A stretch of DNA of 64,000 nucleotides from Streptosporangiaceae bacterium (GTDB lineage: Bacteria > Actinomycetota > Actinomycetes > Streptosporangiales > Streptosporangiaceae), in the NCBI GenBank assembly GCA_036267555.1, contig DATAVV010000383.1, positions 5,443-69,442 of the forward strand, read 5' to 3'. Position numbers and translations under genes: made by a program. Within the stretch, counting starts at the first letter, position 1, and every line of letters begins with the position of its first letter. The notes below the pieces were generated by a model. The model saw nothing but the letters and a program-made list of their open reading frames with translations, did not search any database and was not told the DNA's origin. Below, piece after piece: positions 5,438-18,709 of this stretch.

Positions 5438-7752
5438 CCCGGGAAGACAGCCATCAGGTCGCACTGAGCGGCACCGCATGGGTCTTGTGGCGGGACGTCT
5501 GCGTGCGCAGCGCCGGTTTTCCGGTGCGGCGGGTACTCGCGCTGTGCGACGCCGACCTGGCGGATGCCGCGGACGAATACAGCCGCTCGGCTGACACGGC
5601 GTCGGCTGACACGGCCGCGGCCGTGACGTACCAGTCGGCCTACCAGGCGGCCGTCGCCCGGCTACCTGGCATTTTCGCGGACTTCGCGAGGGAGCCGCGA
5701 TTCCGGGAAGCGGTGATCTGGCAGAACCTGAACATGGCCGAGAACTGCCTCGACCGGCTGACGGCGCAGTCACGGCGCAACCGAAAGGGACGGCAGCGCG
5801 AAAACGCGGTCACCAGCTATGTCCAGCGGTATTGCCTGAAGAACGACTCCATCGGCTTCTTCGGGCCCGTGGGCTGGGCGTGCCTCACCGACGAAGACGA
5901 CGAGGCGGCCGTTATCCCGGGCGGTCAGCTGGTGGCCAGGAGAACGACCTACTTCGAGACGTGGGCCATCGACCAGATAGCCCGGGTGCTCGCCGAGCGT
6001 GACGATGTGTCCAGGTGGCTCCGGCCGCGCCGGGACCCGTCGACGCTGCTGGCGGGGAACCGCGTGCACAGCCTGCGGCGGCGCCCCGCGGCGCTGTCAC
6101 CCGAGCAGCTCCGCATGCTAATGCGCTGCGATGGCCGCCGGACGGTGAGCGAGCTGCTCGCCTCGCCCGAACCCGACCCCCGGACGGTGCTGGACGGCCT
6201 GCGGGATCTCGGCGCGGTGCGGATCGATCTCGCGGTCCCCGTCCAGACCTGGCCGGAACGGTGGCTGCGACGGCACCTCGAGGGCATCGGCGATCCCGCG
6301 GTCCGGGCTGAGGCGCTCCGCCCGCTGGACGATGTTGTCGCGGCCCGGGACGCGGTAGCGGCCGCCACGGGGGATCCCGACGCGCTGCGGGCCGCGATGT
6401 CGGCGCTCGCGCAGACCTTCGAGCGCGTCACGGGAAGGCCGCCGACCCGGCGGCCCGGTGAGACCTACGCGGCGCGCACGCTGGTCTATGAGGACACGGT
6501 CCGGGACCTGGAGGTGAGGCTGGGAAATACCATGATCAAGGCCCTGGCCGAGCCGCTGGGCCTGATGCTCGACAGCGCCCGCTGGCTGGTAACCGACATC
6601 ACTGAGCGGTACCGGGCGCTATTCCTGCGCTTGTTCGACGGCGAGTGCACGCGCACCGGGACCGGCCAGGTGCCGTTGTACCGCCTGCTGATGCTGGCCG
6701 CGAGCGAGATCTCCGCGCCATCGGCCCGCGGGCTCACCAAGGTCGTCTCCCAAGCTTTGCCGGAATTCCAGAAGCGCTGGCAGGCCGTGCTCCAGACCCC
6801 CCAGGACGGGCGTCCGCGGCACTCGGCCCGGTGCGCCGACATCGCCGAGAGGGTCGGCGCGCTGTTCCCGGCCCGGCCGGTGTCCTGGAGCTGCGCTTCG
6901 CAGTATTCGCCGGACATCATGATCGCCGCGACGTCGGCGGACGCGCTGGGCCAGGGCAACTTCCTGCTGGTACTCGGCGAGCTTCACCTGGCGGTCAACA
7001 CCCTGGAAAGCAGGTGCGCTGTCGAGCAGCACGCGGACCCGGCCCGGCTGCTGGACATGGTCGCCGCCGATCACGGCGCCAGGCGGATCGTCGCCGTTCC
7101 CGACCGGAATTCGCCCTTCGTCACGACGCGGGTGACGCCGCCGACGGCGCTGTTGTCGCCCGGCTTCACCTACCTGGCCAACGAGAACGGATCGTTCGAG
7201 CCACCCGAATCGGCTCAGGTGCTCCCGGCTGGAGGCATGTCCGTCAGACGCGACGGTGAAGACCTGGTCGTGCGGTCCGGTGCCTCGGGCCGGGCGTTCT
7301 CCTTCCTCGAACTCATCGGGGATCTCATGACCGCGGTGGTGGCCAACGCGTTCCGCCCCATGGCCCCGGCGCCGCATCAGCCTCGCGTCACGATCGACAA
7401 GCTCGTCTTCAGCCGGGAAGCCTGGACGTTCTCGGTCTCCGACTCACCATGGGTACTGGTCAAGGACGAGGCGCAGCGATATGCGCTGGCCCGGCAGTGG
7501 CGCACGGCAAACCGGCTCCCCGAGCGCATCTTCTACAAGGTCCCGTCCGAAGACAAGCCGGTAGCGGCCGACTTCCGGAGCCTGCCGCTCGTCAACCTGC
7601 TGGCCAGGAATGTGCGACACAGCCGGGACGCCGGGTTTGACACGTTCGGCGTCACCGAGATGCTGCCGGACATCGACCGGCTCTGGCTGCCCGACGCAGC
7701 GGACGAGCGGTACACCTGCGAGCTGAGATTCGTCGCGACGTCATGCGAATGA
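5434..7752 (+). CDS. Lantibiotic-dehydratase-N (LanB glutamylation domain)-like protein, small-LanB/PEARL-like size (772 aa)
   Basis: GTG 5434 overlaps the NRPS stop (GTGA). WVLWRDVCVRSAGFPV and YVQRYCLKNDSIGFFGPVGWA resemble, from memory, actinomycete proteins annotated as lantibiotic dehydratase (Lant_dehydr_N). No elimination (SpaB_C-like) domain is recognisable. The family call is by eye only. Confidence 0.55.
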   Translation: MTREDSHQVALSGTAWVLWRDVCVRSAGFPVRRVLALCDADLADAADEYSRSADTASADTAAAVTYQSAYQAAVARLPGIFADFAREPRFREAVIWQNLNMAENCLDRLTAQSRRNRKGRQRENAVTSYVQRYCLKNDSIGFFGPVGWACLTDEDDEAAVIPGGQLVARRTTYFETWAIDQIARVLAERDDVSRWLRPRRDPSTLLAGNRVHSLRRRPAALSPEQLRMLMRCDGRRTVSELLASPEPDPRTVLDGLRDLGAVRIDLAVPVQTWPERWLRRHLEGIGDPAVRAEALRPLDDVVAARDAVAAATGDPDALRAAMSALAQTFERVTGRPPTRRPGETYAARTLVYEDTVRDLEVRLGNTMIKALAEPLGLMLDSARWLVTDITERYRALFLRLFDGECTRTGTGQVPLYRLLMLAASEISAPSARGLTKVVSQALPEFQKRWQAVLQTPQDGRPRHSARCADIAERVGALFPARPVSWSCASQYSPDIMIAATSADALGQGNFLLVLGELHLAVNTLESRCAVEQHADPARLLDMVAADHGARRIVAVPDRNSPFVTTRVTPPTALLSPGFTYLANENGSFEPPESAQVLPAGGMSVRRDGEDLVVRSGASGRAFSFLELIGDLMTAVVANAFRPMAPAPHQPRVTIDKLVFSREAWTFSVSDSPWVLVKDEAQRYALARQWRTANRLPERIFYKVPSEDKPVAADFRSLPLVNLLARNVRHSRDAGFDTFGVTEMLPDIDRLWLPDAADERYTCELRFVATSCE

Positions 7753-7759
7753 GGTAGCC

Positions 7760-10351
7760 ATGCGGAACCATGTCCGCCGCGGGCCGCGCGCCGTGCGGCA
7801 CGCCGCGCACCTGCTGGTGGCGGTCTGCGTGTCCGCCAGCGTTCTCGGCGTGTTCGCGTTCGGCTGGGGTCCCCTCCCGGCGCTGGGCGAGGCGCTGGAC
7901 CCGGGCCACGGCGCGTGGGCGTCGGCGGCCGGCGCGGCCCTGCCGCACTCGGAATCTCTGCGCATCCCCGGCCTCATGCACCCGGCCACGGTCTACTTCA
8001 CGGCCCAGGGAATACCGTCGGTCCGGGCGGCGGACGAGAATGACCTGTATCTAGCGCAGGGATACGTCGAGGCCAGCTTCCGCCTGACCGAAATGGACCT
8101 GCAGCGCCGGCTCGCCGAGGGACGGCTGGCGCAGCTCGGCGGGGCCTCGGAGGTGTCCTCCGACGAGTTCGAACTGCGGCTGGGCCTGCTCAGGACCGCG
8201 GAGCAGGAATGGGCGCAGACTCCGCGCTCGAGCGCGGCGGGACAAGAGTTGCTCGCCTACTCCCGTGGCGTCAACGACTACCTGGCCCGGGAGCGGGCCA
8301 CGCATGGCTGGCCCGCGATATTCACGCTGGCCGGGGTCTACCCGGGCGCATGGACGCCGGTAGACAGCCTGGCCGTCCAAGGGCTGCTGACGCAGTTGCT
8401 CGATTTCACCACGACGCCGCTGGACTACGCGCTGCTGGAACGGTCCCTGGGCGCGGCCCGGACGATGACCTGGTTCCCGGTCGTCGCGCCGGACGCGCAG
8501 AGCCCGTACGACCAGGGGCCCTACCGGTATTCGGGGGTGACGCCACTTGCCGCCGGCGCCGCGAGTTCCGCGGGCGCCGCGATGAGCACGGCCGCGGCCG
8601 CCGGCCAGAACGGGCCGTCGGCCGCGCTGGACGCGGCGCACGGCGGCGTACCGGCCAAAGCCGCGGCGGCGGCACGCTCTCTTCTCGGCCAGATCGGCCA
8701 GCTTCCCGCCGGGCAGGTCCACGAGTACCCGGACAGCAACGCCTGGGCCGCCAACGGCCCCGCGGTGAGCGGCGGCGGCGCGATGCTGGCCGGTGACCCG
8801 CACCTGCCGCTGACGCTCCCGTCGATCTGGTACCAGCTCGCGCTGGGGGCGCCCGGCCTGGCGGTCAGCGGGGTAAGCGTTCCCGGCGTTCCCGGGATCG
8901 TCATCGGCCATAACAAAAACATCGCCTGGTCCCTGACCGACGTACAGAACGAGTCGACCCTGTTCTACTCGGAACAGACCAGCGCGAGCCACCCGGGCCA
9001 GTATTACTGGCGGGGCCGCTGGCGGCCCATGCGGCAAGTGCACTACACCATAGCCGTCCGGGGCGGAGCGCCCCGGCACCTGACCGTGGACATCACCGTT
9101 CACGGACCGATCATGACGCAGGTGCGGCAGACGACGGCCGTGGACTGGATGGGAAACGTTCCCTCGCCGGATGTGGCCGTCATCGCGCAAATCAGCAAGG
9201 CCAGCAACTACGCGCAGTTCCATGCGGCCCTGGCCAGGTGGAAGGCCCCGACGCAGAATTTCGTCTACGCGGATCAGGCCGGGAACATCGGCGTCGTGGC
9301 CGCGGGCTACTTTCCGCAGGTAGCGCACGGCGATCCGTGGCTTCCGCTGCCCGGGACCGGAGCCGATGACGTTGTCGGCGTCATTCCGTACCGCGCGACC
9401 CCTCAGGTATACGACCCGCCCGGTCATGTGGTCGCGACGGCGAACCAGCGGCCGGTAGGGCCTTCCTATCCCTACTACATAGGAACGTCCGCCGATTTTT
9501 ACGATCCCGGGTTCCGCGCCGATGACATCTACTCATACCTGCGGGCTCACCCGAGTATGCGAATGTCAGCCTTTGCCGCCCTGCAGACCAGCGTTCATGA
9601 CTGGCTGGCGAGCCAGATGGTGCCAAAGCTCCTGGCCGCGCTGCATGGCCACGAGCAGAGCGGAAAAGAGGAGGCGGCGATGCGATTGCTGACGGGATGG
9701 AATGACAGCATGGACAGCGACGCTCCGGCCGCCGCGATCTGGGCCACCTTCTGGTCGGATTACATATCCGCGGTGTTCGGGCCGTGGTGGCGGACGTCGC
9801 GGGTGCCGGTGGCCAGGAGCCTGAACGACCTGCAGGCCAGTTTCGACGCGGACCTGGAGGCCTGGACCCTGACCGATCCCGGTAATCCGGCCTTCAGCCC
9901 GCCGGGCGGCCGCCCGCGGACCGCGGCGCAGGTGATGAGGAGTGCCTTCGCGGCGGCGGTGACGCAGTTGTCGGCGAAGCTCGGGCCCCAGCCGGACAGG
10001 TGGGCGTGGGGGAGGCTGCACAGCACGGCGTTTCCTTCGCTGACCGGGATACCCGCGCTCGGCTACGGACCGCGGCCCGCTGGCGGTGATCAGTGGACCG
10101 TCAACGCCGCGGACGGATACCCCGTGTCCAGCGAGGGCCCGAGCTGGCGCATGATCGTGCGCTGGACCGCCCCGGGTCAGGCGGCAGCCGAGGGCCTCTA
10201 TCCGGGCGGCCAGAGCGAGAACCCGGCTTCGCCCTGGTACGACGACGACATGGCGCGCTGGTGGGCCGGAAGTTACCTGCCGATGCCGCCCGCCGGAGGA
10301 CACACCGGCGGCTGGGCCCGGTGGTCGCTACGTCCGGGGGGTGCGGGCTGA
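7760..10351 (+). CDS. Penicillin acylase-family Ntn hydrolase (PvdQ / aculeacin-A / AHL acylase-like), membrane-anchored or secreted
   Basis: ATG lies 8 nt after the previous stop, with a GAGG RBS. There is an N-terminal hydrophobic segment LLVAVCVSASVLGVFAF. The nucleophile context YPDSNAWAANGPAVSGGGAMLAGDPHL is typical of the beta-subunit N-terminus. The 863-aa length fits the family. Confidence 0.85.
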   Translation: MRNHVRRGPRAVRHAAHLLVAVCVSASVLGVFAFGWGPLPALGEALDPGHGAWASAAGAALPHSESLRIPGLMHPATVYFTAQGIPSVRAADENDLYLAQGYVEASFRLTEMDLQRRLAEGRLAQLGGASEVSSDEFELRLGLLRTAEQEWAQTPRSSAAGQELLAYSRGVNDYLARERATHGWPAIFTLAGVYPGAWTPVDSLAVQGLLTQLLDFTTTPLDYALLERSLGAARTMTWFPVVAPDAQSPYDQGPYRYSGVTPLAAGAASSAGAAMSTAAAAGQNGPSAALDAAHGGVPAKAAAAARSLLGQIGQLPAGQVHEYPDSNAWAANGPAVSGGGAMLAGDPHLPLTLPSIWYQLALGAPGLAVSGVSVPGVPGIVIGHNKNIAWSLTDVQNESTLFYSEQTSASHPGQYYWRGRWRPMRQVHYTIAVRGGAPRHLTVDITVHGPIMTQVRQTTAVDWMGNVPSPDVAVIAQISKASNYAQFHAALARWKAPTQNFVYADQAGNIGVVAAGYFPQVAHGDPWLPLPGTGADDVVGVIPYRATPQVYDPPGHVVATANQRPVGPSYPYYIGTSADFYDPGFRADDIYSYLRAHPSMRMSAFAALQTSVHDWLASQMVPKLLAALHGHEQSGKEEAAMRLLTGWNDSMDSDAPAAAIWATFWSDYISAVFGPWWRTSRVPVARSLNDLQASFDADLEAWTLTDPGNPAFSPPGGRPRTAAQVMRSAFAAAVTQLSAKLGPQPDRWAWGRLHSTAFPSLTGIPALGYGPRPAGGDQWTVNAADGYPVSSEGPSWRMIVRWTAPGQAAAEGLYPGGQSENPASPWYDDDMARWWAGSYLPMPPAGGHTGGWARWSLRPGGAG

Positions 10352-10837: not shown

Positions 10838-12148
10838 CTACCGGCCCGGGCCGAGAGCGGCCGCGAAGACGGACGCGACCTCGAGCGCCTGCTGGCGGTT
10901 GAGGCGGGGATCGCAGGCTGTGCGATAGCGGCGTGGCAGGTCGTCTTCGGTGACGCCGGCGAGCCCGCCGATGCACTCGGTGACGTCTTCGCCCGTCAAC
11001 TCGAGATGGAGACCGCCCGGATGGGTGCCCAGGGCCCGGTGCACCGCCACGTACCCGTTCACCTCATCGGTCATGTCGTCGACGTAGCGCGTCTTATAGC
11101 CATTACGCGACCGCCGGGTATTGGCGTGCATGGGATCGCACTGCCAGATGGCCACCTGCTCACTCGCGAGCAATTTCTCGATGATCGGCGGAAGCAGGTC
11201 GCGGACCCGGTCATGGCCAAGACGGCAGATGAGCGTGAGCCGGCCTGGCACGCGATCCGGATTGAGCCGCTCCGCGCAGTCCGCGACCTCTTCCGGCCGG
11301 GCACCCGGGCCGATCTTCAGCCCGATGGGATTGGCCAGCAACGCAGCGAACTGGACGTGAGCTCCCGCTGGCTGCCTGGTGCGGTCTCCGATCCACAGGA
11401 AATGAGAAGAAAGGTCGTACAGCCGGGGCGGCCCAAGGCCGGCGGCGACCGAGCGCAGCAAGCCGTACTCGTAATCCAGCACCAGCGCCTCGTGGCTGGC
11501 GAATATCTCGGCCGCGCCATGCAGGCCGAAGGCGCCGCCGGCGGCCGCGGCCCGTCGCTGCGGGCGGTCAGCCGGCTGTGACCGGCAGAAGGCCCGCAGC
11601 AGCCCGATCGTCGAGCGGGCCCGGGCGTGCGCGGTGATCATCCTGGCCGGGTCAGGAACGCGGGCGGCGCGGTTGCCGGCGGCGGAGTGGACCATGTCTC
11701 CGCGGTATGACGGCAGTCCCTCGGCATCCAGCAAGGCTGATCGCGGTTTCGCGTACTGGCCTCCCAGGCGCCCGATCATGACGACCGGCATCGCGGTGCC
11801 GCGCTCTACCACCGCCGTCATCGCGCACAGCACGCGCAGGCTGCCCACGACCTGCCCGGCGGTGAGCGCGAAGGTCTCCGCGCATTCCCCGCCCTGTACG
11901 AGGAGAGCCTGACCCCGGCATACCGCCTCCAGCCTGGCGCTGAGCCGGTCCACCTCGCCGGCCGTGACCACCGGAGGCTCGCGCGCGAGCGTGGCCCGCA
12001 CCGTCAGGGCGCGCCGCCGGTCGGGCCAGGCGGGCTGCTGGGCCGCGGGCCGTTCGAGCGCGGCACGGACCGCGCGCACCTGGTGCTCGGTCAGCGCGCT
12101 GGCCGCATCCGGTCCGTCACCGCCGACGCGGGCGGGCGGTGGGCTCAC
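10838..12148 (-). CDS. 3-deoxy-7-phosphoheptulonate (DAHP) synthase, class II
   Basis: Motif series AQQPAWPD, GGECAE, GGQYAKPRS, HEALVLDYE, WIGDRTRQ, NPIGLKIGP, WQCDPMHANT. GTG 12148 overlaps the upstream stop (GTGA). Confidence 0.9.
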   Translation of the reverse strand: MSPPPARVGGDGPDAASALTEHQVRAVRAALERPAAQQPAWPDRRRALTVRATLAREPPVVTAGEVDRLSARLEAVCRGQALLVQGGECAETFALTAGQVVGSLRVLCAMTAVVERGTAMPVVMIGRLGGQYAKPRSALLDAEGLPSYRGDMVHSAAGNRAARVPDPARMITAHARARSTIGLLRAFCRSQPADRPQRRAAAAGGAFGLHGAAEIFASHEALVLDYEYGLLRSVAAGLGPPRLYDLSSHFLWIGDRTRQPAGAHVQFAALLANPIGLKIGPGARPEEVADCAERLNPDRVPGRLTLICRLGHDRVRDLLPPIIEKLLASEQVAIWQCDPMHANTRRSRNGYKTRYVDDMTDEVNGYVAVHRALGTHPGGLHLELTGEDVTECIGGLAGVTEDDLPRRYRTACDPRLNRQQALEVASVFAAALGPGR

Positions 12149-13104
12149 CAGGTACCGCCGCGGCCCGGAGACAGCACACGGACCTGCTGGAACAGCGCCG
12201 CGCAGAGTGCGCTGTAGCCGTCGGACCCATCGCCGAGCCGACCGCGAGACTGCCGCATGAGCTGGCCGAATGCTGTTTCGTCACCGCGGTCAGCCAGCTC
12301 CGAGAGGCGAGCCACGCTGTTCGACAGGGCCTGCCGGGCCGGTCCGGCGTAGGGGTTCGCCCGCTGGATATCCCAGTACACCTCGGGCGTGCCGCCGGTT
12401 ATCCGGGCCACCAGCGCCATCAGCGTCGTGTACGGGGGCGGCGCCGCCGGCGCCGCCCCGGCCAGGTCGACGTCCAGCTCAGCCAGGGCCAGAGCGAACG
12501 CGAGGACGGTCGCGTGGACCAGCACCTGGGTGACCGACGTCAGCCGGTCATGGTCATCGGCGCTGAGCCGGATAACGTGCGCCCTGGCCCCGGCGAGCAG
12601 GCTCAGCAACGCGGCGGCCCGGGGGCCGTCGCGCTCGACCACGGCGGCGACGGCCTGGCCCGCGAACCCGAGTGACGGGGCGAACATCGGGTTCAGGCTG
12701 GCCGTCTCGACCCCGCCGCGAAGCTGGCGCTGGATCGCGCACACCCGGGACTTGACGGACAGCGTGTCGGCGAGCAGCGACCCCGGCCGCATCTGGGCGG
12801 CCACCGCGGCGACCGCGGCGAGCGCGACGGCTTCCGGCACGGCCAGGATGACGAGGTCGGCCGTTGCGATCTCGTCTCGCAGTTCCCGGGCCGGGGCGTA
12901 CAGATCGGCGCGGAGGAAGCGCGGGGCCGGGCCGCGCGGGGGAGCCGCCGGAGGCGATCCCGGCCACCCGCACGCCCCGGCGGGCGGGACGAGGTCAGCC
13001 ACGCACAGCTGACTGCCGTGGTCGCGCAGGAGCCCGGCGAACATCCCGCCCACGGCGCCCGAGCCGCCCACCACGACACACCGCGCGAACCGGGCCGGCG
13101 TCAC
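12145..13104 (-). CDS. Prephenate-dehydrogenase (TyrA) family protein; PapC-like 4-amino-4-deoxyprephenate dehydrogenase by context
   Basis: Rossmann motif VVVGGSGAVGGMFAGLL. The length is 319 aa. It has 4-nt overlaps with both neighbours in the pabAB/mutase operon. Confidence 0.7.
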   Translation of the reverse strand: MTPARFARCVVVGGSGAVGGMFAGLLRDHGSQLCVADLVPPAGACGWPGSPPAAPPRGPAPRFLRADLYAPARELRDEIATADLVILAVPEAVALAAVAAVAAQMRPGSLLADTLSVKSRVCAIQRQLRGGVETASLNPMFAPSLGFAGQAVAAVVERDGPRAAALLSLLAGARAHVIRLSADDHDRLTSVTQVLVHATVLAFALALAELDVDLAGAAPAAPPPYTTLMALVARITGGTPEVYWDIQRANPYAGPARQALSNSVARLSELADRGDETAFGQLMRQSRGRLGDGSDGYSALCAALFQQVRVLSPGRGGTW

Positions 13105-15242
13105 CGGCTCGCTCCGGGCAGCAGCTCCTGAGCGGGCAGTTCGGCCCCCAGGGCGGCGAGCATGGCCCGCGACTTGACGAGGATCTCCTCGTACTCGTCC
13201 GCCGGGTCGGACAGCGCGACAATCGCGCCGCCCGTGCCGAAGCTAGCGGTGTCACCCGAAATCACGACGGTCCTTATGACGATGCTGAGATCCGCCGCGC
13301 CGCTGAGCCCGAACCAGCCCAGACCGCCTGAGTACACGCCGCGGGCCCCCTCTTCGAGAGAGTCGATGATCTGCATCGTGCGCACCTTGGGCGCGCCCGT
13401 CATCGACCCGCCCGGGAAGGCCGCGCGCACGCACTCAATGGTCGAGGCGCCGGCGCGCAACTGACCTCGTACCGTGGAGACGAGCTGGTGCACGGTCCGG
13501 TAGGTCTCGACCTCGAAGATCCGTGGCACGTGAACCGACCCGACCTCGCAGACCCGGCCAAGGTCGTTCCGGACCAGATCGACGATCATGAGGTTTTCCG
13601 CCTTGTCCTTCTCATGGTGGAGAAGGTCCAGGCGCAGCCGCTCGTCTTCGTCCTCAGTGGTACCCCGGGGCCGCGTTCCCTTGATCGGGCGTGACTCCAC
13701 GGCACCGTCGGCGGTCACCGAGATGAAGCGCTCGGGCGAGGAGCTCAGCACCGCGACCGACGGCAGTCTCAGCAGCGCGCCATAGGGGACAGGGCTTATC
13801 CGGCGCAGCCGGCGGTAGACCGTGACGACGTCGCCGCGCAGCGGGACCGCGGCCATGTTCGTCAGGCATACCTCGTAGGACTCGCCCTGGTGGATCTCCT
13901 GGAGGCTGGACTTGATCCGCTCGATGTAAGCCGGCTGCTCGTGGCGAAAGCGTGCGACATCCGGCTGGCCCGCGAGAGGCAGATCGTCCAGGTGCGGCGG
14001 CTTGGCATCGATCTTCTCCAGCTCGGCCATCCGGTCCGCGAACTCCTCCAGCCACCCCTCGGCGGCTGCCGCGCTTCCCGCCGGGCCGGCGTCGACGTGG
14101 CTGAGGCACACCAGCCATCCCGAGTCGTCAGCCGCGTCGAAGATGATCATCCTGTCGGCGAAGATGAAGGCGGCGTCCGGCCCTTCGGACGTGTGCGCGA
14201 CGTCGCCGCCTGTTTCCGCCTTCAGCTCGTAGCCGAGGTATCCGACGTATCCCAGGTTGAACTCCGACGGCAGCCCACCGGGTGCCGCGAGCCGGCGTTC
14301 GCGCAGCCGGCTCTCCAGATAGCGGAAGACGGACTCACGCACCGTTTCCTCGCTGCCGTCGGCACGGCGTATTCGCACGACACCAGACCGGATGTCGTAG
14401 GTGACCACCTCCGCCAGCGGGCCCTCGCCGTCGCCCATGAACGACAGCCGGCCCGATGACCCGGGCCCGCTGTCCAGCCAGAAGCTCGGCTCCTTCCGGG
14501 CGAAGAACGTCAGGTACACCCGCTCGGGATCGGGCATCGAAGGCAGCCGGCGTGCGTGCAGGCGGTAGCGCGGAGGGGGCAAGGGCGCGGCGCCGCCGGG
14601 CCGGCCTACGCGGTCACTGCCTGCCGCGCTCACCGAGCATCGCGATTGACGGTAGACGGCGGAAAGCTCCCGGAAATTGGCCAGCAACTCCGCGCCGTAT
14701 TCCGTGCAGATGGACTCCGGGTGAAACTGCACACCCCAGAGCGGGAAGTCCCGGTGTCGTACCGCCATCACGACGCCGTCGCCAGACCATGCCGTGCACT
14801 CGAGCTCGGAAGGGACGCCGCTGACGGCGAGAGAGTGGTAGCGAACGGCCGAGAATGGTGAAGGTATCCCGGCGAATAGTTCCCCGCCGTTGTGGTAAAC
14901 GGGTGATTTCCGCCCGTGACGGGGTTCGGGTGCGAGGCCCACCGTCGCCCCCCAGATCTCACAAATTCCCTGATGTCCGAGGCAGACGCCGAGCACAGGC
15001 AGGCCGCTGGACCGGATCGCGTCGGCGCTGATGCCGAAATCACGCGCCCGGTCCGGCCGTCCCGGTCCGGGAGAGATGATGATGTTGTCTATTTCACTGA
15101 GCTGGATCGAGGACCAGTCGGCATCATTGGTGACGACCAGGGGCTGGCACCCGTTGACGCTGGCGATGAGATGGTACAGGTTATAAGTGAAAGAGTCGTA
15201 GTTGTCGATGAGAAGGGTTCGCATGACGTCGTCGCCGATCAT
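13101..15242 (-). CDS. pabB: Fused aminodeoxychorismate synthase PabA-PabB (PapA-like)
   Basis: The N-terminal glutamine amidotransferase shows LLIDNYDSFTYNLYHLI, GVCLGHQ and VQFHPES. The chorismate-utilising domain shows SSSPERF, PIKGTRPRG, FPGGSMTGAPK and GGAIVALSDP. Confidence 0.92.
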   Translation of the reverse strand: MIGDDVMRTLLIDNYDSFTYNLYHLIASVNGCQPLVVTNDADWSSIQLSEIDNIIISPGPGRPDRARDFGISADAIRSSGLPVLGVCLGHQGICEIWGATVGLAPEPRHGRKSPVYHNGGELFAGIPSPFSAVRYHSLAVSGVPSELECTAWSGDGVVMAVRHRDFPLWGVQFHPESICTEYGAELLANFRELSAVYRQSRCSVSAAGSDRVGRPGGAAPLPPPRYRLHARRLPSMPDPERVYLTFFARKEPSFWLDSGPGSSGRLSFMGDGEGPLAEVVTYDIRSGVVRIRRADGSEETVRESVFRYLESRLRERRLAAPGGLPSEFNLGYVGYLGYELKAETGGDVAHTSEGPDAAFIFADRMIIFDAADDSGWLVCLSHVDAGPAGSAAAAEGWLEEFADRMAELEKIDAKPPHLDDLPLAGQPDVARFRHEQPAYIERIKSSLQEIHQGESYEVCLTNMAAVPLRGDVVTVYRRLRRISPVPYGALLRLPSVAVLSSSPERFISVTADGAVESRPIKGTRPRGTTEDEDERLRLDLLHHEKDKAENLMIVDLVRNDLGRVCEVGSVHVPRIFEVETYRTVHQLVSTVRGQLRAGASTIECVRAAFPGGSMTGAPKVRTMQIIDSLEEGARGVYSGGLGWFGLSGAADLSIVIRTVVISGDTASFGTGGAIVALSDPADEYEEILVKSRAMLAALGAELPAQELLPGASR

Positions 15243-15583
15243 CCCTGAGCGGCGCTGCTCGCGATGTCGTGTCCATGAGCGCTGTTAATGATCGCGTCTT
15301 CAACGCGGCAGCTTTCGGAAATAAGGACGGCATAGAGCGAGCGCAGAAATTCGGGACTAATCTGATGCGCGTGCGCGTAGTCGCGGGCCCGTTCCTGAAC
15401 CAGGTCAATCCGGGCGGGCTGCATCATGGGAACGCCGCTTTCCCGCTTATACGAGGCGATGCGCATGCAGCAGGACAGTCTCTCCCGCACGATGTCGAGT
15501 AGCCGCTGGTCTATCTCGTCGAGTTCCGCGCGTAGCGAAGAAAGGTCCGTTCCTGCTTGCCCGCCCATTGCCGATGTCACCAT
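15239..15583 (-). CDS. AroQ-type chorismate-mutase-like protein; PapB-like 4-amino-4-deoxychorismate mutase by context
   Basis: The protein is 114 aa. LRAELDEIDQRLLDIVRERLSCCMRIASYKRESGVPMMQPARIDLV fits the helical AroQ signature. It has an ATGA overlap with pabAB. Confidence 0.75.
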   Translation of the reverse strand: MVTSAMGGQAGTDLSSLRAELDEIDQRLLDIVRERLSCCMRIASYKRESGVPMMQPARIDLVQERARDYAHAHQISPEFLRSLYAVLISESCRVEDAIINSAHGHDIASSAAQG

Positions 15584-16515
15584 CTTTCCCTCCCTAGATC
15601 AAGGCCGAAGTCGCGCGCGGTGTCATCGCTGACTTCCGTAAAGAACGTGCCCAGAAAATCTTCTAGGTGGCTGAAAGATTCAGCGCAGAATAGAGTTGGC
15701 TTATAGGCTGAATCGTCATACCAGCGAGTAGCCATCTCCCGGACATCAAGCGGTATCGTCTCGGCCTCCTGTAGCTGGCTCATCTGCCCGTATGACGAGA
15801 GCAGCCCGGCGCCGATGGCCTGTACCCGGTCGCCTTTTTTTATGACGCCGTATTCGAGGCAGAACCAGAACACATTTGCCGCGACAAGCATCGCGTCCGG
15901 GTCGGTTAGCCGTACCGTCGCGTCGCCGATTACCTGATAGATACGGGCGATCCGCTCATTCGCCAGGACGTTGGCGTGGCCAATCATCTCATGGACCATG
16001 TCGGGTTCCGGGGAGAAATGGGGTGAAGAATGGTGGCGGAGATATTGCGTAGTCCGGAATACCCGGTGGTGCAGAGCGCCGTAAAAGTCGTCGAATGAGA
16101 CGCTGCCGACCGTGGGCCGCAGGGAGAATTCGGTGATCTTGCGCAGCGTCCGGGAGACATCCTCCAGTTCGGGTACGTGATCGTCAGGAAGGCCGAGCGC
16201 GTCGGCTCCGGCCAGGAATTCAGCGCAGGCATGCTCGCGGTGCAGTGAGCTCAGCCTCGAGGTGATGAGCTGCCACATGTCGTGTTCGCGATCGGTGTAC
16301 CCGACGCACGCGATGGGTTTTCCCGGCTCGTGCCCGAGCGCGAGCGCCGCGATGGTCTCCCTGCGCCGGACATAATCGGGATCGGAGCCACCTGGATGAC
16401 CGTCCGCGAAACAGACGGCCACCCGACCGCGATCTTGGATAACGAGCGGAGCGTCAAGCCTGGGCTGAGGGCTCGGCGCGGGGTGATCCGGTGCATTCCG
16501 TTCCATGGCTCGCAT
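15577..16515 (-). CDS. Pterin-dependent aromatic amino-acid hydroxylase (phenylalanine-hydroxylase family)
   Basis: The 2-His-1-carboxylate iron site is present as EPDMVHEMIGHANVL and FWFCLEYGV. HPGGSDPDYVRRRETIA is an N-terminal family motif. The start is ambiguous (16563, 16515 or 16506), and every option overlaps the 3' end of the upstream regulator. Confidence 0.85.
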   Translation of the reverse strand: MRAMERNAPDHPAPSPQPRLDAPLVIQDRGRVAVCFADGHPGGSDPDYVRRRETIAALALGHEPGKPIACVGYTDREHDMWQLITSRLSSLHREHACAEFLAGADALGLPDDHVPELEDVSRTLRKITEFSLRPTVGSVSFDDFYGALHHRVFRTTQYLRHHSSPHFSPEPDMVHEMIGHANVLANERIARIYQVIGDATVRLTDPDAMLVAANVFWFCLEYGVIKKGDRVQAIGAGLLSSYGQMSQLQEAETIPLDVREMATRWYDDSAYKPTLFCAESFSHLEDFLGTFFTEVSDDTARDFGLDLGRERW

Positions 16516-18709
16516 GCTGCCGAGATGCGCTGTTCGTGCGCTTAAGGCGAGCTGACACGCCATTGCCGTACCGGCCCGCGGGCTCGAGTCCCGCCGCGTA
16601 CTCGCGGATCAGGTCGTGAAACGCGAACCGGCCGGGCACGTGCTCGGTCAGAAGGTGAACGTGGCTGAGCTCACGCAGCAGGTCATGGGCGACGGGGAGG
16701 GGAACGCCGGCCAGGCGGGCCGCCACGGGCACGGTGACGTCGCGGCCCGGGTACCTGCCGAGCAGTCGGAACAGCCGTGCGCCCGGTTCGGTCAGCGCCT
16801 CGTAAGACCAGGAGAAGACCGTTCTCAGGTCGGTCGCGGGGTCCCCGCCGGCCAGGATGTCGAGCCGGCCGGCGCCGCGCCGCAGCTTGTCGGTGAGGAA
16901 GGCCAGCGGGAACGTGCGCTGCGCCGAGGCCAGGGTGGCGGCGATGCTGAGGGCCAGGGGAAGCCGGCCGCACGTCTCGACCAGCCGGGCCGCCGCGTCG
17001 GGCTCGTCGCTCAGGCGCCCCCGGCCCAGGCGGGACGCGAGCAGCTGGCGAGCGGCCTGCCGGCTGAGTACATCCAGTATGAGCAGCTGGGCGCGGTGCA
17101 CGGCGGCGAGCCCGGCGAGCTGGCTGCGGCTGGTGACGATGACCAGGCTGCCAGGGCCGCCCGGCAGCAGCGGCCGAACCTCCTCGACGTCACGGGCATT
17201 GTCCGCGAGCACCAGCATTCGCCGGTCGGCCAGTAACGTCCGGTACAAGGCGGCTCGTTCCTTCTGATGCGCCGGGATGTGCTCGGCGGGCATCCCCAGC
17301 GCCTCGAGGAAGCCGTGTAGCGCCTCCGTTGCACGGACCCGCGCGCCCCGGGGGCCGAAGCCGCCGAGATCGACGTACAGTTGTCCGTCCGGGAAGCAAG
17401 AAGCGGCCTGATGGGCCCATTGGATGGCCAGGGTGGTCTTGCCGACCCCGGCGGCGCCCACGATCGCCGTGATCACCGCCGACCCCCGCGCGGCGGCCGA
17501 GCCCTCCGCCATCCGGCTGAGGTGCGCGGACATCTGCTTCAGCTCATCCGCCCGGCCGACGGTCGGCCACAGCGCGGCCGGGAGCTGGCGCGGCATCGGC
17601 ATCCTGGCCACCGCGGCTGCCGGGTCGGGCAGGCGGTCCGGGGGTTCGCCGCCGAGGACGGCGCCGGTGGTGAGGCGGGCATCCTGACGCAGTATCAGCG
17701 CATGCGCCTGCGCCAGTTCGGCGCCGGGCAGCACACCGAACTCATGGTCCAGCCGCCTTCGGATCTCCTCGTAGATCTGCAGGGCGGCCGCTGCCTCGCC
17801 GCTGCCCGCCAGCGCGGTCATCAGCCTCGCGTGCGCGGGTTCGTGGAACGGGTGCACCGCCGTGGCCGCCCACAACTCGTCCAGCGCGCGCTCGGGATGG
17901 CCGTGCTGCCGGCAGGTATCGGCGTAAGCGAGGACGGTCCCGACGCGCTCCCGGGCCAGGCCGTACGTGGCCTTATGGCCGCGCAGCACATCAAGGTCGG
18001 CCAGCGGCTCGGCCTTCCAGGCCCGCAGCGCGCGCGTGAACAGGTCACTGGCGATCGCCGCGTCGCCCGCCCGCAGCGCGGCCCGGGCCTGCCGGACCAG
18101 GTCCCGGAAGCCGAGCAGGTCCAACTGGTCCGCGGTGACCTGGAGTCGGTAGCTGGTCCTCGCGGATACCAGTAGCCCGTCCTGGTCTTGCGGGGACCGG
18201 GCCGGGTCGAGGGCCGCGCGTAGCCGGCTCACATAGACCTGCACCAGGTTGACGGCGGTCGCCGGCGGCTGCTCCCACAGCGCGTCGATGATGGTCTCTC
18301 TGTGCACTACGGCGTTGGACTCGATGGCGAGGATGGCGAGGACCGCACGCTGCCGGGGCGGCCCGAGCAGGACCGGCCTGCCGTCACGCCATGCGGCCAG
18401 CGGGCCGAGCAGGCGCAGCCGCACTCCGGTGCCCGGCGCGGACTCGGCGTCGGCGCTGGCCACCGGCACGTGGGATTCCTCGGCGGCCAGGGCGAGGGCT
18501 CGCCGCTGTGATGAGTCCAGGAGGAGAGCGTGGCTGAGCTGGGCCAGTGAGCTAGGGCGTGGCCGTGACCTGCGACCTTGCTCCAGGTCTCTGATCGCTG
18601 CGACGCTGAGCCCGCTTCGCTGCGCCAGCGCTGACTGGGAGAGCTCAGCGGATTGCCGCAGTGAACGCAGCATGACGCTGAACTGCCTGGTAGATCTGTT
18701 GTTGCCCAT
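16454..18709 (-). CDS. XRE-HTH / SARP (wHTH+BTAD) / NB-ARC fusion transcriptional regulator
   Basis: The XRE helix-turn-helix is LSQSALAQRSGLSVAAIRDLEQGRR. The SARP wHTH shows LRLLGPLAAWRDGRPV and RQRAVLAILA. A BTAD-like helical region is present. The P-loop is GAAGVGKTTLA. Confidence 0.85.
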   Translation of the reverse strand: MGNNRSTRQFSVMLRSLRQSAELSQSALAQRSGLSVAAIRDLEQGRRSRPRPSSLAQLSHALLLDSSQRRALALAAEESHVPVASADAESAPGTGVRLRLLGPLAAWRDGRPVLLGPPRQRAVLAILAIESNAVVHRETIIDALWEQPPATAVNLVQVYVSRLRAALDPARSPQDQDGLLVSARTSYRLQVTADQLDLLGFRDLVRQARAALRAGDAAIASDLFTRALRAWKAEPLADLDVLRGHKATYGLARERVGTVLAYADTCRQHGHPERALDELWAATAVHPFHEPAHARLMTALAGSGEAAAALQIYEEIRRRLDHEFGVLPGAELAQAHALILRQDARLTTGAVLGGEPPDRLPDPAAAVARMPMPRQLPAALWPTVGRADELKQMSAHLSRMAEGSAAARGSAVITAIVGAAGVGKTTLAIQWAHQAASCFPDGQLYVDLGGFGPRGARVRATEALHGFLEALGMPAEHIPAHQKERAALYRTLLADRRMLVLADNARDVEEVRPLLPGGPGSLVIVTSRSQLAGLAAVHRAQLLILDVLSRQAARQLLASRLGRGRLSDEPDAAARLVETCGRLPLALSIAATLASAQRTFPLAFLTDKLRRGAGRLDILAGGDPATDLRTVFSWSYEALTEPGARLFRLLGRYPGRDVTVPVAARLAGVPLPVAHDLLRELSHVHLLTEHVPGRFAFHDLIREYAAGLEPAGRYGNGVSARLKRTNSASRQHASHGTECTGSPRAEPSAQA

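What the first reader, a model, noticed from the sequence alone, without database searches (positions are those of the whole stretch)
10838..16515. Pterin-dependent aromatic hydroxylase embedded as first gene of a PAPA-type (PabAB/mutase/dehydrogenase/DAHPS) operon
Seen in the sequence: the five genes are overlap-coupled. The hydroxylase keeps the HEMIGH...E iron triad.

Established knowledge: PapA/B/C-type enzymes yield 4-aminophenylpyruvate and then PAPA, with a housekeeping aminotransferase completing the last step. Phenylalanine-hydroxylase homologues in clusters can act as regio-divergent ring hydroxylases, for example the Phe 3-hydroxylase that makes m-Tyr for pacidamycin.

Inference: the operon may make a ring-hydroxylated aminophenylalanine (amino-tyrosine-like) building block. 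I cannot assign such a block to any known pathway. Alternatively the hydroxylase supplies Tyr or m-Tyr as a second precursor. No dedicated A domain or carrier for such a unit is visible in the window.
Basis: partly seen in the sequence, partly recalled or inferred. Interest (0 to 1): 0.6.

Follow-up and report, generated by a model that had tools for sequence, protein, structure and literature searches.

The report
Aminophenylalanine operon with a built-in ring hydroxylase
An uncultured actinomycete carries a five-gene operon that should make the unusual amino acid p-aminophenylalanine for a peptide antibiotic-type cluster, and it has an atypical pterin-dependent ring hydroxylase attached, which may turn that amino acid into a hydroxy-amino form not yet known as a natural building block.

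Summary
Five minus-strand genes (10838-16515) overlap by 7, 4, 4 and 4 nt: an aromatic amino acid hydroxylase (AAAH), an AroQ mutase, a fused PabAB, a TyrA-like dehydrogenase and a class II DAHP synthase.

The four non-hydroxylase genes are a chloramphenicol-type (CmlE/D/C/B) p-aminophenylalanine (PAPA) module:
- PabAB keeps the PIKGT lysine.
- The mutase passes the PapB/PchB-type model.
- The dehydrogenase has Asn in place of the catalytic His of prephenate dehydrogenases, as do its 120 best homologues.
- In other genomes it sits in mutase-PabAB-dehydrogenase cassettes.

The hydroxylase has no close orthologue outside its own lineage (50% identity at most). It lies in a small clade of non-canonical actinobacterial AAAHs. 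It lacks the PacX Cys/Thr signature. It carries an Asp at the position of tyrosine hydroxylase Asp425.

No other AAAH or PAPA cassette examined shows this pairing. It is conserved, under purifying selection, in a sister metagenome lineage.

PAPA 3-hydroxylation is the best inference but is unproven. The cluster runs beyond the window and includes an orphan carrier domain and a freestanding adenylation enzyme.

The scan noted this stretch before. On other DNA it noted PAPA cassettes with other oxygenases.

The parts
15577..16515 (-). Pterin/iron-dependent aromatic amino acid hydroxylase (AAAH), catalytic domain only, non-canonical active site
   Evidence: - Family and fold: Pfam PF00351, 231 bits. 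AF2 model pLDDT 89.9, TM 0.85-0.86 to PAH, TyrH and TPH.
- Iron triad: H144/H149/E190.
- Specificity positions (hPAH H264/Y277/F331/G346/V379) read R/F/Y/G/D.
- Selection: dN/dS 0.19 against the sister contig.
- Start: 16515 or 16506.
15239..15583 (-). AroQ-type mutase, PapB/CmlD-like (4-amino-4-deoxychorismate mutase by inference)
   Evidence: PF01817. TIGR01803 'CM-like' subfamily scores 78.4 bits against a cut-off of 73.35, while all ordinary chorismate mutase models fall below their cut-offs. It is 46-57% identical to mutases that precede PabAB in cassettes of other genomes.
13101..15242 (-). Fused PabA-PabB aminodeoxychorismate synthase (PapA/CmlB-like)
   Evidence: GATase + Anth_synt_I_N + Chorismate_bind. 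pabB TIGR00553 scores 356.8 against a cut-off of 328.4. The PIKGT motif with its lysine is at residue 519. It is 49-58% identical to cassette homologues.
12145..13104 (-). TyrA-family dehydrogenase of the PapC/CmlC type (4-amino-4-deoxyprephenate dehydrogenase by inference)
   Evidence: - It is far below every prephenate dehydrogenase cut-off (105 bits against 310 or more).
- SLNPMFAP aligns with GLHPMFG of H. influenzae TyrA (2PV7), so Asn replaces the catalytic His.
- Asn is found in 120/120 best homologues.
- JGI names many of those homologues 4-amino-4-deoxyprephenate dehydrogenase.
10838..12148 (-). Class II DAHP synthase, cluster-dedicated copy (CmlE-like)
   Evidence: PF01474, 463 bits. 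A second copy, 47% identical, lies on contig C100. Same-genus genomes carry only the housekeeping-type copy (~67% nt matches).
16454..18709 (-). XRE-HTH/SARP/NB-ARC regulator whose 3' end overlaps the hydroxylase start
   Evidence: Pfam domains. Stop codon TGA at 16456-16454. The order regulator-hydroxylase is the same in sister contigs L101 and L102.
2..10351 (+). Convergent biosynthetic operon that the precursor operon most likely serves: NRPS2 (FAAL-ACP-C-A-T-C, 5' end outside the window), LanB-like ligase, Ntn acylase
   Evidence: Pfam. The last C domain carries EHHLVHDG, the ureido-forming signature of PMC11212132. The A-domain code reads DAEDIGTIVK.

Best explanation
SHOWN
- The five genes form a dedicated aromatic-precursor operon of an NRPS cluster.
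- Four of them are the chloramphenicol-type module. DAHP synthase raises shikimate flux. Fused PabAB makes 4-amino-4-deoxychorismate. A PapB-type mutase and a PapC-type dehydrogenase convert that to 4-aminophenylpyruvate.
- The fifth gene encodes an intact pterin- and iron-dependent aromatic amino acid hydroxylase. It belongs to a small non-canonical, gene-cluster-associated clade.
- That gene is translationally coupled to the mutase, conserved in a sister lineage and under purifying selection.

INFERRED
- A housekeeping aminotransferase converts 4-aminophenylpyruvate to p-aminophenylalanine (PAPA).
- The hydroxylase takes free PAPA. The para position is occupied, so, as tyrosine hydroxylase does with tyrosine, it hydroxylates C3 and gives 4-amino-3-hydroxyphenylalanine, an o-aminophenol amino acid.
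- A freestanding adenylation enzyme encoded upstream of the window activates this unit and loads it on the orphan carrier domain of NRPS1. The unit then enters a ureido-linked lipopeptide.
For: PAPA module
- Family scores and the PIKGT lysine.
- Catalytic His replaced by Asn here and in 120/120 homologues.
- Housekeeping PDHs in 14 of 15 same-genus genomes score 70-97 bits on PF02153 and keep GGHPLAG. This protein scores 27 bits.
- Only 7 of 400 class genomes have this dehydrogenase. In 5 of them it sits in a mutase-PabAB-dehydrogenase cassette in the same order.
- No Aminotran_4 (PabC) on the contig.
- The gene set matches cmlE/D/C/B (PMC4249514).

Hydroxylase is a cluster gene
- It is the only AAAH in the genome. 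None was found in 15 same-genus genomes.
- The cluster is not syntenic in the genus.
- Gene order is the same in L102 (99.98% nt) and in L101+L008 (94-96% nt). The hydroxylase is 96% identical there and all key residues are kept.
- dN/dS is 0.19, like PabAB at 0.18.
- The hydroxylase and the mutase share a low-GC3 patch (0.70 and 0.69, against 0.83-0.95 in neighbouring genes).

Substrate inference
- 78 of 84 related loci carry Tyr/Phe/Gly/Ile at the hPAH 277/331/346/379 positions, 65 of them with His264. This enzyme has Phe/Tyr/Gly/Asp with Arg at 264.
- Among about 270 relatives, Asp at the 379 position marks the eukaryotic tyrosine hydroxylase clade. Among proteins with bacterial context it occurs only here and in one NRPS-embedded relative, P0004.
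- Rat TyrH Asp425 is listed as a tyrosine-binding residue (PMC13705442). From my own knowledge, it is essential for DOPA formation (Daubner et al., Biochemistry 2000).
- Three aligners agree on this column.

Carrier
- NRPS1 = A(Ser-like)-T-C-T, with an A-less last T, beside a freestanding A tail, MbtH and TauD-like genes.
Against: - No assay, product or expression data exist. The substrate assignment rests on one convergent residue plus gene coupling.
- The mechanistic role of TyrH Asp425 is not a simple contact with the para substituent, so transferring it to an amino substituent is an analogy.
- The pairing of an AAAH with a PAPA cassette is seen in only one lineage. None of the 84 AAAH loci examined (80 from species genomes plus 4 context loci) has PAPA genes within the DNA held, at most 10 kb on each side and much less on a few short contigs. 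None of the 5 PAPA cassettes has an AAAH. Comparative support for functional coupling is therefore absent.
- NCBIfam's phenylalanine 4-monooxygenase model NF008877 is just passed (247.5 bits against a cut-off of 247).
- Neither visible A-domain code looks aromatic (DAEDIGTIVK, Lys-like; DVWHISLIDK, Ser-like).
- The freestanding A enzyme is known only from its last 133 residues.
- The genome is 78.8% complete.
Confidence: 0.42

Rival explanations
1. The hydroxylase supplies a second, separate aromatic building block from a proteinogenic amino acid, while PAPA is used unmodified or modified later by other enzymes. The candidates are Tyr to DOPA (most compatible with the Asp), Phe to Tyr, or Phe to m-Tyr, as PacX does for the ureido peptide pacidamycin.
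For: - All characterised AAAHs act on Phe, Tyr or Trp.
- NF008877, the phenylalanine 4-monooxygenase model, is just passed.
- Trp326 and Gly346 equivalents are kept, as in Phe and Tyr hydroxylases.
- Asp at the TyrH 425 position fits Tyr as well as PAPA.
- The cluster has a ureido-forming C domain, and ureido peptides often carry Phe, Tyr or m-Tyr at that position (PacX precedent, PMC7027792).
- No other PAPA cassette has an AAAH.
Against: - Tyr is available from primary metabolism.
- The canonical Phe4H signature, kept in 78 of 84 relatives, is lost here.
- The m-Tyr determinants Cys187 and Thr202 are absent.
- The gene is translationally coupled to the aminodeoxychorismate mutase and shares its odd base composition. 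That is hard to explain if the two pathways are unrelated.
Confidence: 0.35
2. The hydroxylase performs other chemistry on a PAPA-pathway compound. Examples are benzylic or beta hydroxylation, ipso attack with loss or shift of the amino group, or oxidation leading to an aminoquinone, as in dnacin-type units.
For: - From my own knowledge, AAAHs can do benzylic hydroxylation and NIH shifts on para-substituted phenylalanines.
- Dnacin B1 shows that PAPA can end up as an aminoquinone (PMC7570522).
- The active site is altered at four positions.
Against: There is no precedent for a natural AAAH dedicated to such reactions. A TauD-like oxygenase upstream is a more usual candidate for beta-hydroxylation.
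Confidence: 0.08
3. The operon is primary metabolism: extra tyrosine supply (DAHPS, mutase, prephenate dehydrogenase, Phe hydroxylase) plus PabAB for folate.
For: Every family also has primary-metabolism members. No housekeeping PDH was found in this 78.8%-complete genome.
Against: - The dehydrogenase lacks the catalytic His and belongs to a rare accessory subfamily, present in 7 of 400 class genomes.
- Same-genus genomes have a distinct housekeeping PDH and lack this operon.
- There is no ADC lyase nearby.
- The operon sits between SARP regulators and an NRPS.
Confidence: 0.02

Closest known systems
Chloramphenicol precursor module cmlE-cmlD-cmlC-cmlB of Streptomyces venezuelae (equivalent to PapA/B/C of pristinamycin and DinV/E/F of dnacin B1)
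   Same: The same four enzyme families are clustered: a dedicated DAHP synthase, fused ADC synthase, an AroQ mutase and a TyrA-like dehydrogenase. There is no ADC lyase, and the last transamination is left to housekeeping enzymes (PMC4249514, PMC7570522).
   Different: None of those modules contains a pterin-dependent hydroxylase. Chloramphenicol modifies carrier-bound PAPA with the diiron enzymes CmlA and CmlI. Here an AAAH is translationally coupled to the mutase.
PacX / SfaA phenylalanine 3-hydroxylases (pacidamycin, sanglifehrin)
   Same: These are actinobacterial AAAHs, catalytic domain only, recruited into gene clusters to make a non-proteinogenic ring-hydroxylated amino acid. Pacidamycin is also a ureido peptide.
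   Different: The Cys187 and Thr202 determinants (PMC7027792) are Tyr and Gly here. The PacX-type representative (P0270, QYWVCTDI) branches outside the clade that holds this enzyme. PacX is not linked to PAPA genes.
Eukaryotic tyrosine 3-monooxygenase (TyrH)
   Same: It hydroxylates a para-substituted phenylalanine at C3. Both share the Asp at position 425, and TyrH is the highest-identity solved structure (39-40%).
   Different: This enzyme is not in the TyrH clade, so the Asp is convergent. TyrH Gln310 and His323 are Arg and Phe here. There is no regulatory or tetramerisation domain.
sna (threopeptin) type clusters: Curea-domain NRPS plus PEARL-like ligase SnaE (PMC11212132)
   Same: The surrounding cluster has a C domain with the EHHXXHDG signature and a LanB-like protein.
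   Different: The sna cluster has no PAPA module and no AAAH. This comparison concerns the context, not the operon itself.

Membership tests
PAPA precursor module (PapA/B/C, CmlB/D/C + CmlE) | ADC synthase (PabB-type chorismate-binding enzyme with the PIKGT lysine, with glutamine amidotransferase) | tested here: met
   TIGR00553 scores 356.8 against a cut-off of 328.4. The GATase fusion is seen. PIKGT is at residue 519.
PAPA precursor module (PapA/B/C, CmlB/D/C + CmlE) | AroQ mutase of the PapB/CmlD-like subfamily, not an ordinary chorismate mutase | tested here: met
   TIGR01803 'CM-like' is passed (78.4 against 73.35), while all chorismate mutase equivalogs fall below their cut-offs. The same gene precedes PabAB in 5 cassettes elsewhere.
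PAPA precursor module (PapA/B/C, CmlB/D/C + CmlE) | TyrA-family dehydrogenase distinct from prephenate dehydrogenase | tested here: met
   It is below all PDH cut-offs. The catalytic His is Asn here and in 120/120 homologues. The housekeeping PDH of the genus is a different gene. Direct identity to characterised PapC or CmlC could not be measured, because no reference sequence was available in the tools.
PAPA precursor module (PapA/B/C, CmlB/D/C + CmlE) | No ADC lyase, so flux does not go to PABA | tested here: met
   The two Aminotran_4 genes of the genome lie on other contigs, C474 and C279.
PAPA precursor module (PapA/B/C, CmlB/D/C + CmlE) | Production of 4-aminophenylpyruvate / PAPA | not testable with these tools
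   This needs expression and LC-MS.
Pterin-dependent aromatic amino acid hydroxylase (PF00351) | 2-His-1-Glu iron site, pterin-binding Glu after the first His, and the catalytic-domain fold | tested here: met
   H144-E145...H149 and E190 are invariant or nearly so. The model has pLDDT 89.9 and TM 0.85-0.86 to PAH, TyrH and TPH.
Canonical bacterial phenylalanine 4-hydroxylase (PhhA) | Specificity positions His264/Tyr277/Phe331/Gly346/Val or Ile379 (hPAH numbering) | tested here: not met
   The enzyme reads Arg/Phe/Tyr/Gly/Asp. By contrast, 78 of 84 related loci keep Tyr/Phe/Gly/Ile. The NF008877 score is only at the cut-off (247.5 against 247).
PacX-type phenylalanine 3-hydroxylase | Cys at the Phe331 position and Thr at the Gly346 position (PacX Cys187, Thr202) | tested here: not met
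   Tyr and Gly are found here. It is separate from the PacX-type sequence in the tree.
Tyrosine 3-monooxygenase | Gln310/His323/Asp425 and membership of the TyrH clade | tested here: not met
   Only the Asp425 equivalent is present. The enzyme is nested in the actinobacterial clade, far from the TyrH clade.

The most novel reading that the evidence does not exclude
The enzyme is a dedicated p-aminophenylalanine 3-hydroxylase. It would be a bacterial AAAH that convergently acquired the tyrosine hydroxylase Asp to work on a para-amino ring. The operon would then deliver 4-amino-3-hydroxyphenylalanine, an o-aminophenol amino acid not reported as a natural-product building block, into a ureido lipopeptide assembled by an NRPS together with a tRNA-dependent ligase.
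Probability: 0.4. Interest if true: 0.7.

Novelty: new variant of a known kind. Interest (0 to 1): 0.55.

Why it matters
PAPA modules are known from chloramphenicol, pristinamycin, dnacin and obafluorin. Their ring is modified late, by diiron, flavin or haem enzymes. A pterin-dependent hydroxylase built into the module would be a new substrate class for this enzyme family. It would also be a one-step biocatalytic route to an o-aminophenol amino acid, which is useful for genetic-code expansion, benzoxazole or phenoxazinone chemistry, and polymers.

Two by-products are usable at once:
- The family-wide His-to-Asn change (NPMFAP in place of HPxxG) separates PapC-type dehydrogenases from prephenate dehydrogenases, which databases still name alike.
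- There is a small clade of non-canonical, cluster-associated AAAHs whose products are unknown.

Tried and rejected
- **PAPA genes near AAAH relatives.** I searched the 80 closest AAAH loci of species genomes plus 4 context loci. None had PAPA genes.
- **AAAH near other PAPA cassettes.** None found.
- **Metagenome scan with the sub-clade alignment.** It returned only two distant hits.
- **Contexts of other Asp-bearing short AAAHs.** One lies on a eukaryote-like contig and one on a contig with no context.
- **Closing the cluster.**
  - Contig C276 carries an adenylating enzyme at its end, but it is an acyl-CoA-ligase type (GYWG motif). It cannot continue into the NRPS-type A8-A10 tail on C241, so I rejected it as the missing freestanding A enzyme.
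  - The rest of the sister JGI record could not be read (and the half-record limit).
- **Structure model and Foldseek.** They confirm the fold but do not discriminate between PAH, TyrH and TPH.
- **Promoter and terminator scan.** Nothing above chance.
- **tRNA genes.** None in the window.
- **Literature search for hydroxy-PAPA as a natural building block.** It found only pheomelanin degradation chemistry.
- **Pterin recycling.** A pterin-4a-carbinolamine dehydratase exists on C52, but such genes are widespread, so it says little.

Full report
**What is there.** The window comes from a high-GC (about 71%) actinobacterial metagenome-assembled genome of 482 contigs, 78.8% complete. Between 10838 and 16515 five minus-strand genes follow each other with start/stop overlaps of 7, 4, 4 and 4 nt:
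- a Biopterin_H hydroxylase
- a CM_2 mutase
- a GATase/chorismate-binding fusion
- a PDH-like protein
- a class II DAHP synthase

The long GTG start of the dehydrogenase is correct, because the Rossmann motif lies upstream of the shorter start called on sister contigs. The hydroxylase begins at ATG 16515 or 16506. The database call of 281 aa (GTG 16422) cuts off a stretch, APLVIQDRG, that is conserved in relatives. The gene therefore overlaps by 53-62 nt the stop codon (16454) of an XRE-HTH/SARP/NB-ARC regulator on the same strand. The HEMIGH...E iron triad is present and falls in invariant alignment columns.

**The four non-hydroxylase genes are a PAPA-type module.**
- PabAB passes the pabB equivalog (356.8 against 328.4 bits) and keeps the PIKGT lysine.
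- The mutase passes TIGR01803, the 'CM-like' subfamily, and fails every ordinary chorismate mutase model.
- The dehydrogenase scores 105 bits or less against prephenate dehydrogenase models whose cut-offs are 273 or more. Its only solved relative is H. influenzae TyrA (2PV7). GLHPMFG of that enzyme aligns with SLNPMFAP here, so the catalytic histidine (E. coli His197, from my own knowledge) is asparagine.
- All 120 best homologues have the same Asn. Many are named 4-amino-4-deoxyprephenate dehydrogenase by JGI.
- Same-genus genomes carry a separate housekeeping PDH with GGHPLAG that scores 70-97 bits on PF02153. This protein scores 27 bits.
- In a sample of 400 genomes of the class, only 7 have this dehydrogenase. 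In 5 of them it lies in a mutase-PabAB-dehydrogenase cassette in the same order, at 45-58% identity.
- No class IV aminotransferase (ADC lyase) is on the contig.
- The genome has a second DAHP synthase, 47% identical, elsewhere.
- The gene set equals cmlE/cmlD/cmlC/cmlB of the chloramphenicol cluster (PMC4249514) and DinV/E/F of dnacin (PMC7570522).

**The hydroxylase.**
- *Fold.* It is a complete catalytic domain. The AF2 model has pLDDT 89.9 and TM 0.85-0.86 to PAH, TyrH and TPH. The best solved match by sequence is rat TyrH, marginally (192.7 bits against 189.6 for PAH).
- *Relatives.* In 5.8 billion clustered proteins the nearest relative outside its own 90% cluster is 50% identical. It is the only AAAH in the genome. 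None was found in 15 genomes of the genus, and the cluster is not syntenic there.
- *Specificity positions.* I read five positions known from the literature, in hPAH numbering: His264, Tyr277, Phe331 (PacX Cys187), Gly346 (PacX Thr202) and Val379 (TyrH Asp425). Sources are PMC7027792, PMC13705442 and, from my own knowledge, Daubner et al. 2000. Of 84 related loci, 78 read Tyr/Phe/Gly/Ile at the last four, 65 of them with His at the first. This enzyme reads Arg/Phe/Tyr/Gly/Asp.
- *The Asp.* Across about 270 relatives, Asp at the last position marks the eukaryotic tyrosine hydroxylase clade. Among proteins with bacterial context it occurs only here and in P0004. P0004 is a 47%-identical protein wedged between a C-A-T module and an A-T-reductase on a short metagenome contig.
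- *Tree.* In a maximum-likelihood tree (165 rows, quick method, midpoint rooted) this enzyme groups with P0004 (SH-aLRT 92) and P0047. They sit inside a clade of 17 non-canonical AAAHs (support 95) that includes Streptomyces genes next to NRPS genes. That clade is nested among canonical actinobacterial enzymes. The PacX-type sequence (Cys/Thr signature) and the TyrH clade branch elsewhere.
- *Conclusion.* The enzyme is not a PacX-type Phe 3-hydroxylase and not a canonical Phe 4-hydroxylase, and its TyrH-like Asp is convergent.

**Is the pairing real?** Two metagenome contigs carry the same order: regulator, hydroxylase, mutase, PabAB, (dehydrogenase, DAHPS).
- L102 is 99.98% identical to the window.
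- L101 plus L008 are 94-96% identical.
- In this sister lineage the hydroxylase is 96% identical and all key residues are kept.
- dN/dS is 0.19, against 0.18 for PabAB, 0.30 for the mutase and 0.22 for DAHPS.

The hydroxylase, the mutase, the first 200 codons of PabAB and the last 100 codons of the regulator share a low GC3 (0.69-0.78, against 0.83-0.95 around them). This suggests that hydroxylase and mutase share a history. Outside this lineage the pairing was not found. None of the 84 AAAH loci has PAPA genes in the DNA held, at most 10 kb on each side, and none of the 5 cassettes has an AAAH.

**Context beyond the window.**
- The window starts inside NRPS2 (FAAL-ACP-C-A-T-C). Its last C domain has EHHLVHDG, the ureido-forming signature of PMC11212132. 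Its A-domain code reads DAEDIGTIVK, which is Lys-like.
- Upstream on the contig are two ABC transporters and the end (C tail-T) of another NRPS.
- Contig C241 supplies the rest. In order it carries the last 133 residues of a freestanding A enzyme, a TauD-like oxygenase, and NRPS1 with an A domain (DVWHISLIDK, Ser-like, with an embedded methyltransferase), then T and C.
- That C241 belongs here is shown by P0404. It is 94% identical, 1412 aa long, and lies on the same 23.8-kb JGI contig as the sister PAPA genes. A 74%-identical cluster, L112, shows the order TauD, MbtH, NRPS1 (A-T-C-T), ABC, ABC, NRPS2.
- NRPS1 thus ends in a carrier domain without its own A domain, next to a freestanding A enzyme and an MbtH protein. 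This is a plausible entry point for the aromatic unit. By my own recollection it resembles the pacidamycin ureido machinery. The specificity of that A enzyme is unknown, because its N-terminal part is not assembled.

**Interpretation.** That the operon is a dedicated PAPA supply module with an attached, functional, specialised hydroxylase is well supported. What the hydroxylase acts on is inferred. Three points favour PAPA giving 4-amino-3-hydroxyphenylalanine:
- translational coupling to the mutase
- shared base composition with the mutase
- loss of the Phe4H signature together with gain of the TyrH Asp, which in TyrH goes with hydroxylation next to an occupied para position

Several points count against it:
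- The pairing occurs in a single lineage.
- The transfer of the Asp's role is by analogy.
- Tyr to DOPA fits the Asp equally well.
- No A-domain code seen so far looks aromatic.

I put PAPA 3-hydroxylation at about 0.4, a separate Phe- or Tyr-derived precursor at about 0.35, other chemistry at about 0.08 and primary metabolism at about 0.02. The remainder is left unassigned.

**Comparison with what is known.** The library search found no report of hydroxy-PAPA as a natural building block. The nearest precedent for an oxygenated PAPA-derived ring is the aminoquinone of dnacin B1, attributed to other enzymes. Earlier notes of this scan describe, on other DNA, PAPA-type cassettes with P450, flavin or N-oxygenases. 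I did not test them, and none involves an AAAH. The finding is a new variant of a known kind: a known precursor module with a new tailoring partner from a known enzyme family.

Noticed in passing
window 12145-13104, and homologues P0122-P0241: The whole PapC-like dehydrogenase subfamily carries [SG]LNPMFAP where prephenate dehydrogenases have the catalytic His (GGHPLAG / GLHPMFG). This is a simple sequence marker. Databases still label most members 'prephenate dehydrogenase'.
   Followed up: yes
window 14800-16560: There is a low-GC3 patch: 0.69-0.78 against 0.83-0.95 in the neighbouring genes. It covers the last ~100 codons of the SARP regulator, the hydroxylase, the mutase and the first ~200 codons of PabAB.
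   Followed up: partly
G000 contig C241 (L110) and C383:1-5442 (L004), upstream of the window: The cluster continues beyond the window. In order it holds a freestanding A enzyme (tail only), a TauD-like oxygenase, NRPS1 (A with embedded methyltransferase, Ser-like code, then T-C-T ending in an orphan carrier domain) and two ABC transporters. A relative, L112, also has an MbtH gene.
   Followed up: partly
window 2-5437 (NRPS2 residue ~1895 of the full protein): The terminal C domain reads EHHLVHDG. This matches exactly the EHHXXHDG signature proposed for ureido-forming condensation domains.
   Followed up: partly
L001, L007, L027, L067; proteins P0003, P0011, P0013, P0059: A clade of Streptomyces and Streptosporangium AAAHs carries Phe/Tyr/Ser/Val at the specificity positions, with Ser where PacX has Thr202. 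In L001 and L007 they lie beside a UvrA-like gene, a TPMT-like methyltransferase and a xanthine-dehydrogenase-like gene, and in L001 also an NRPS gene. The neighbourhoods of L027 and L067 were not examined. Their function is uncharacterised.
   Followed up: partly
L005 / L006 (Logan contigs), protein P0004: This is the only other AAAH with bacterial context that has the TyrH-like Asp. It sits between a C-A-T module and an A-T-reductase. The adjacent A domain has an unusual code, about DGFDNGAVWK.
   Followed up: partly
window 16454-18709, codon 492: A single TTA codon lies in the XRE/SARP regulator. No other cluster gene examined has one. This is a possible bldA-type developmental control.
   Followed up: no
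L102 13379-14278 and L008 1-903: The JGI gene calls for the dehydrogenase start about 20 codons too late and remove the GxGxxG nucleotide-binding motif.
   Followed up: yes
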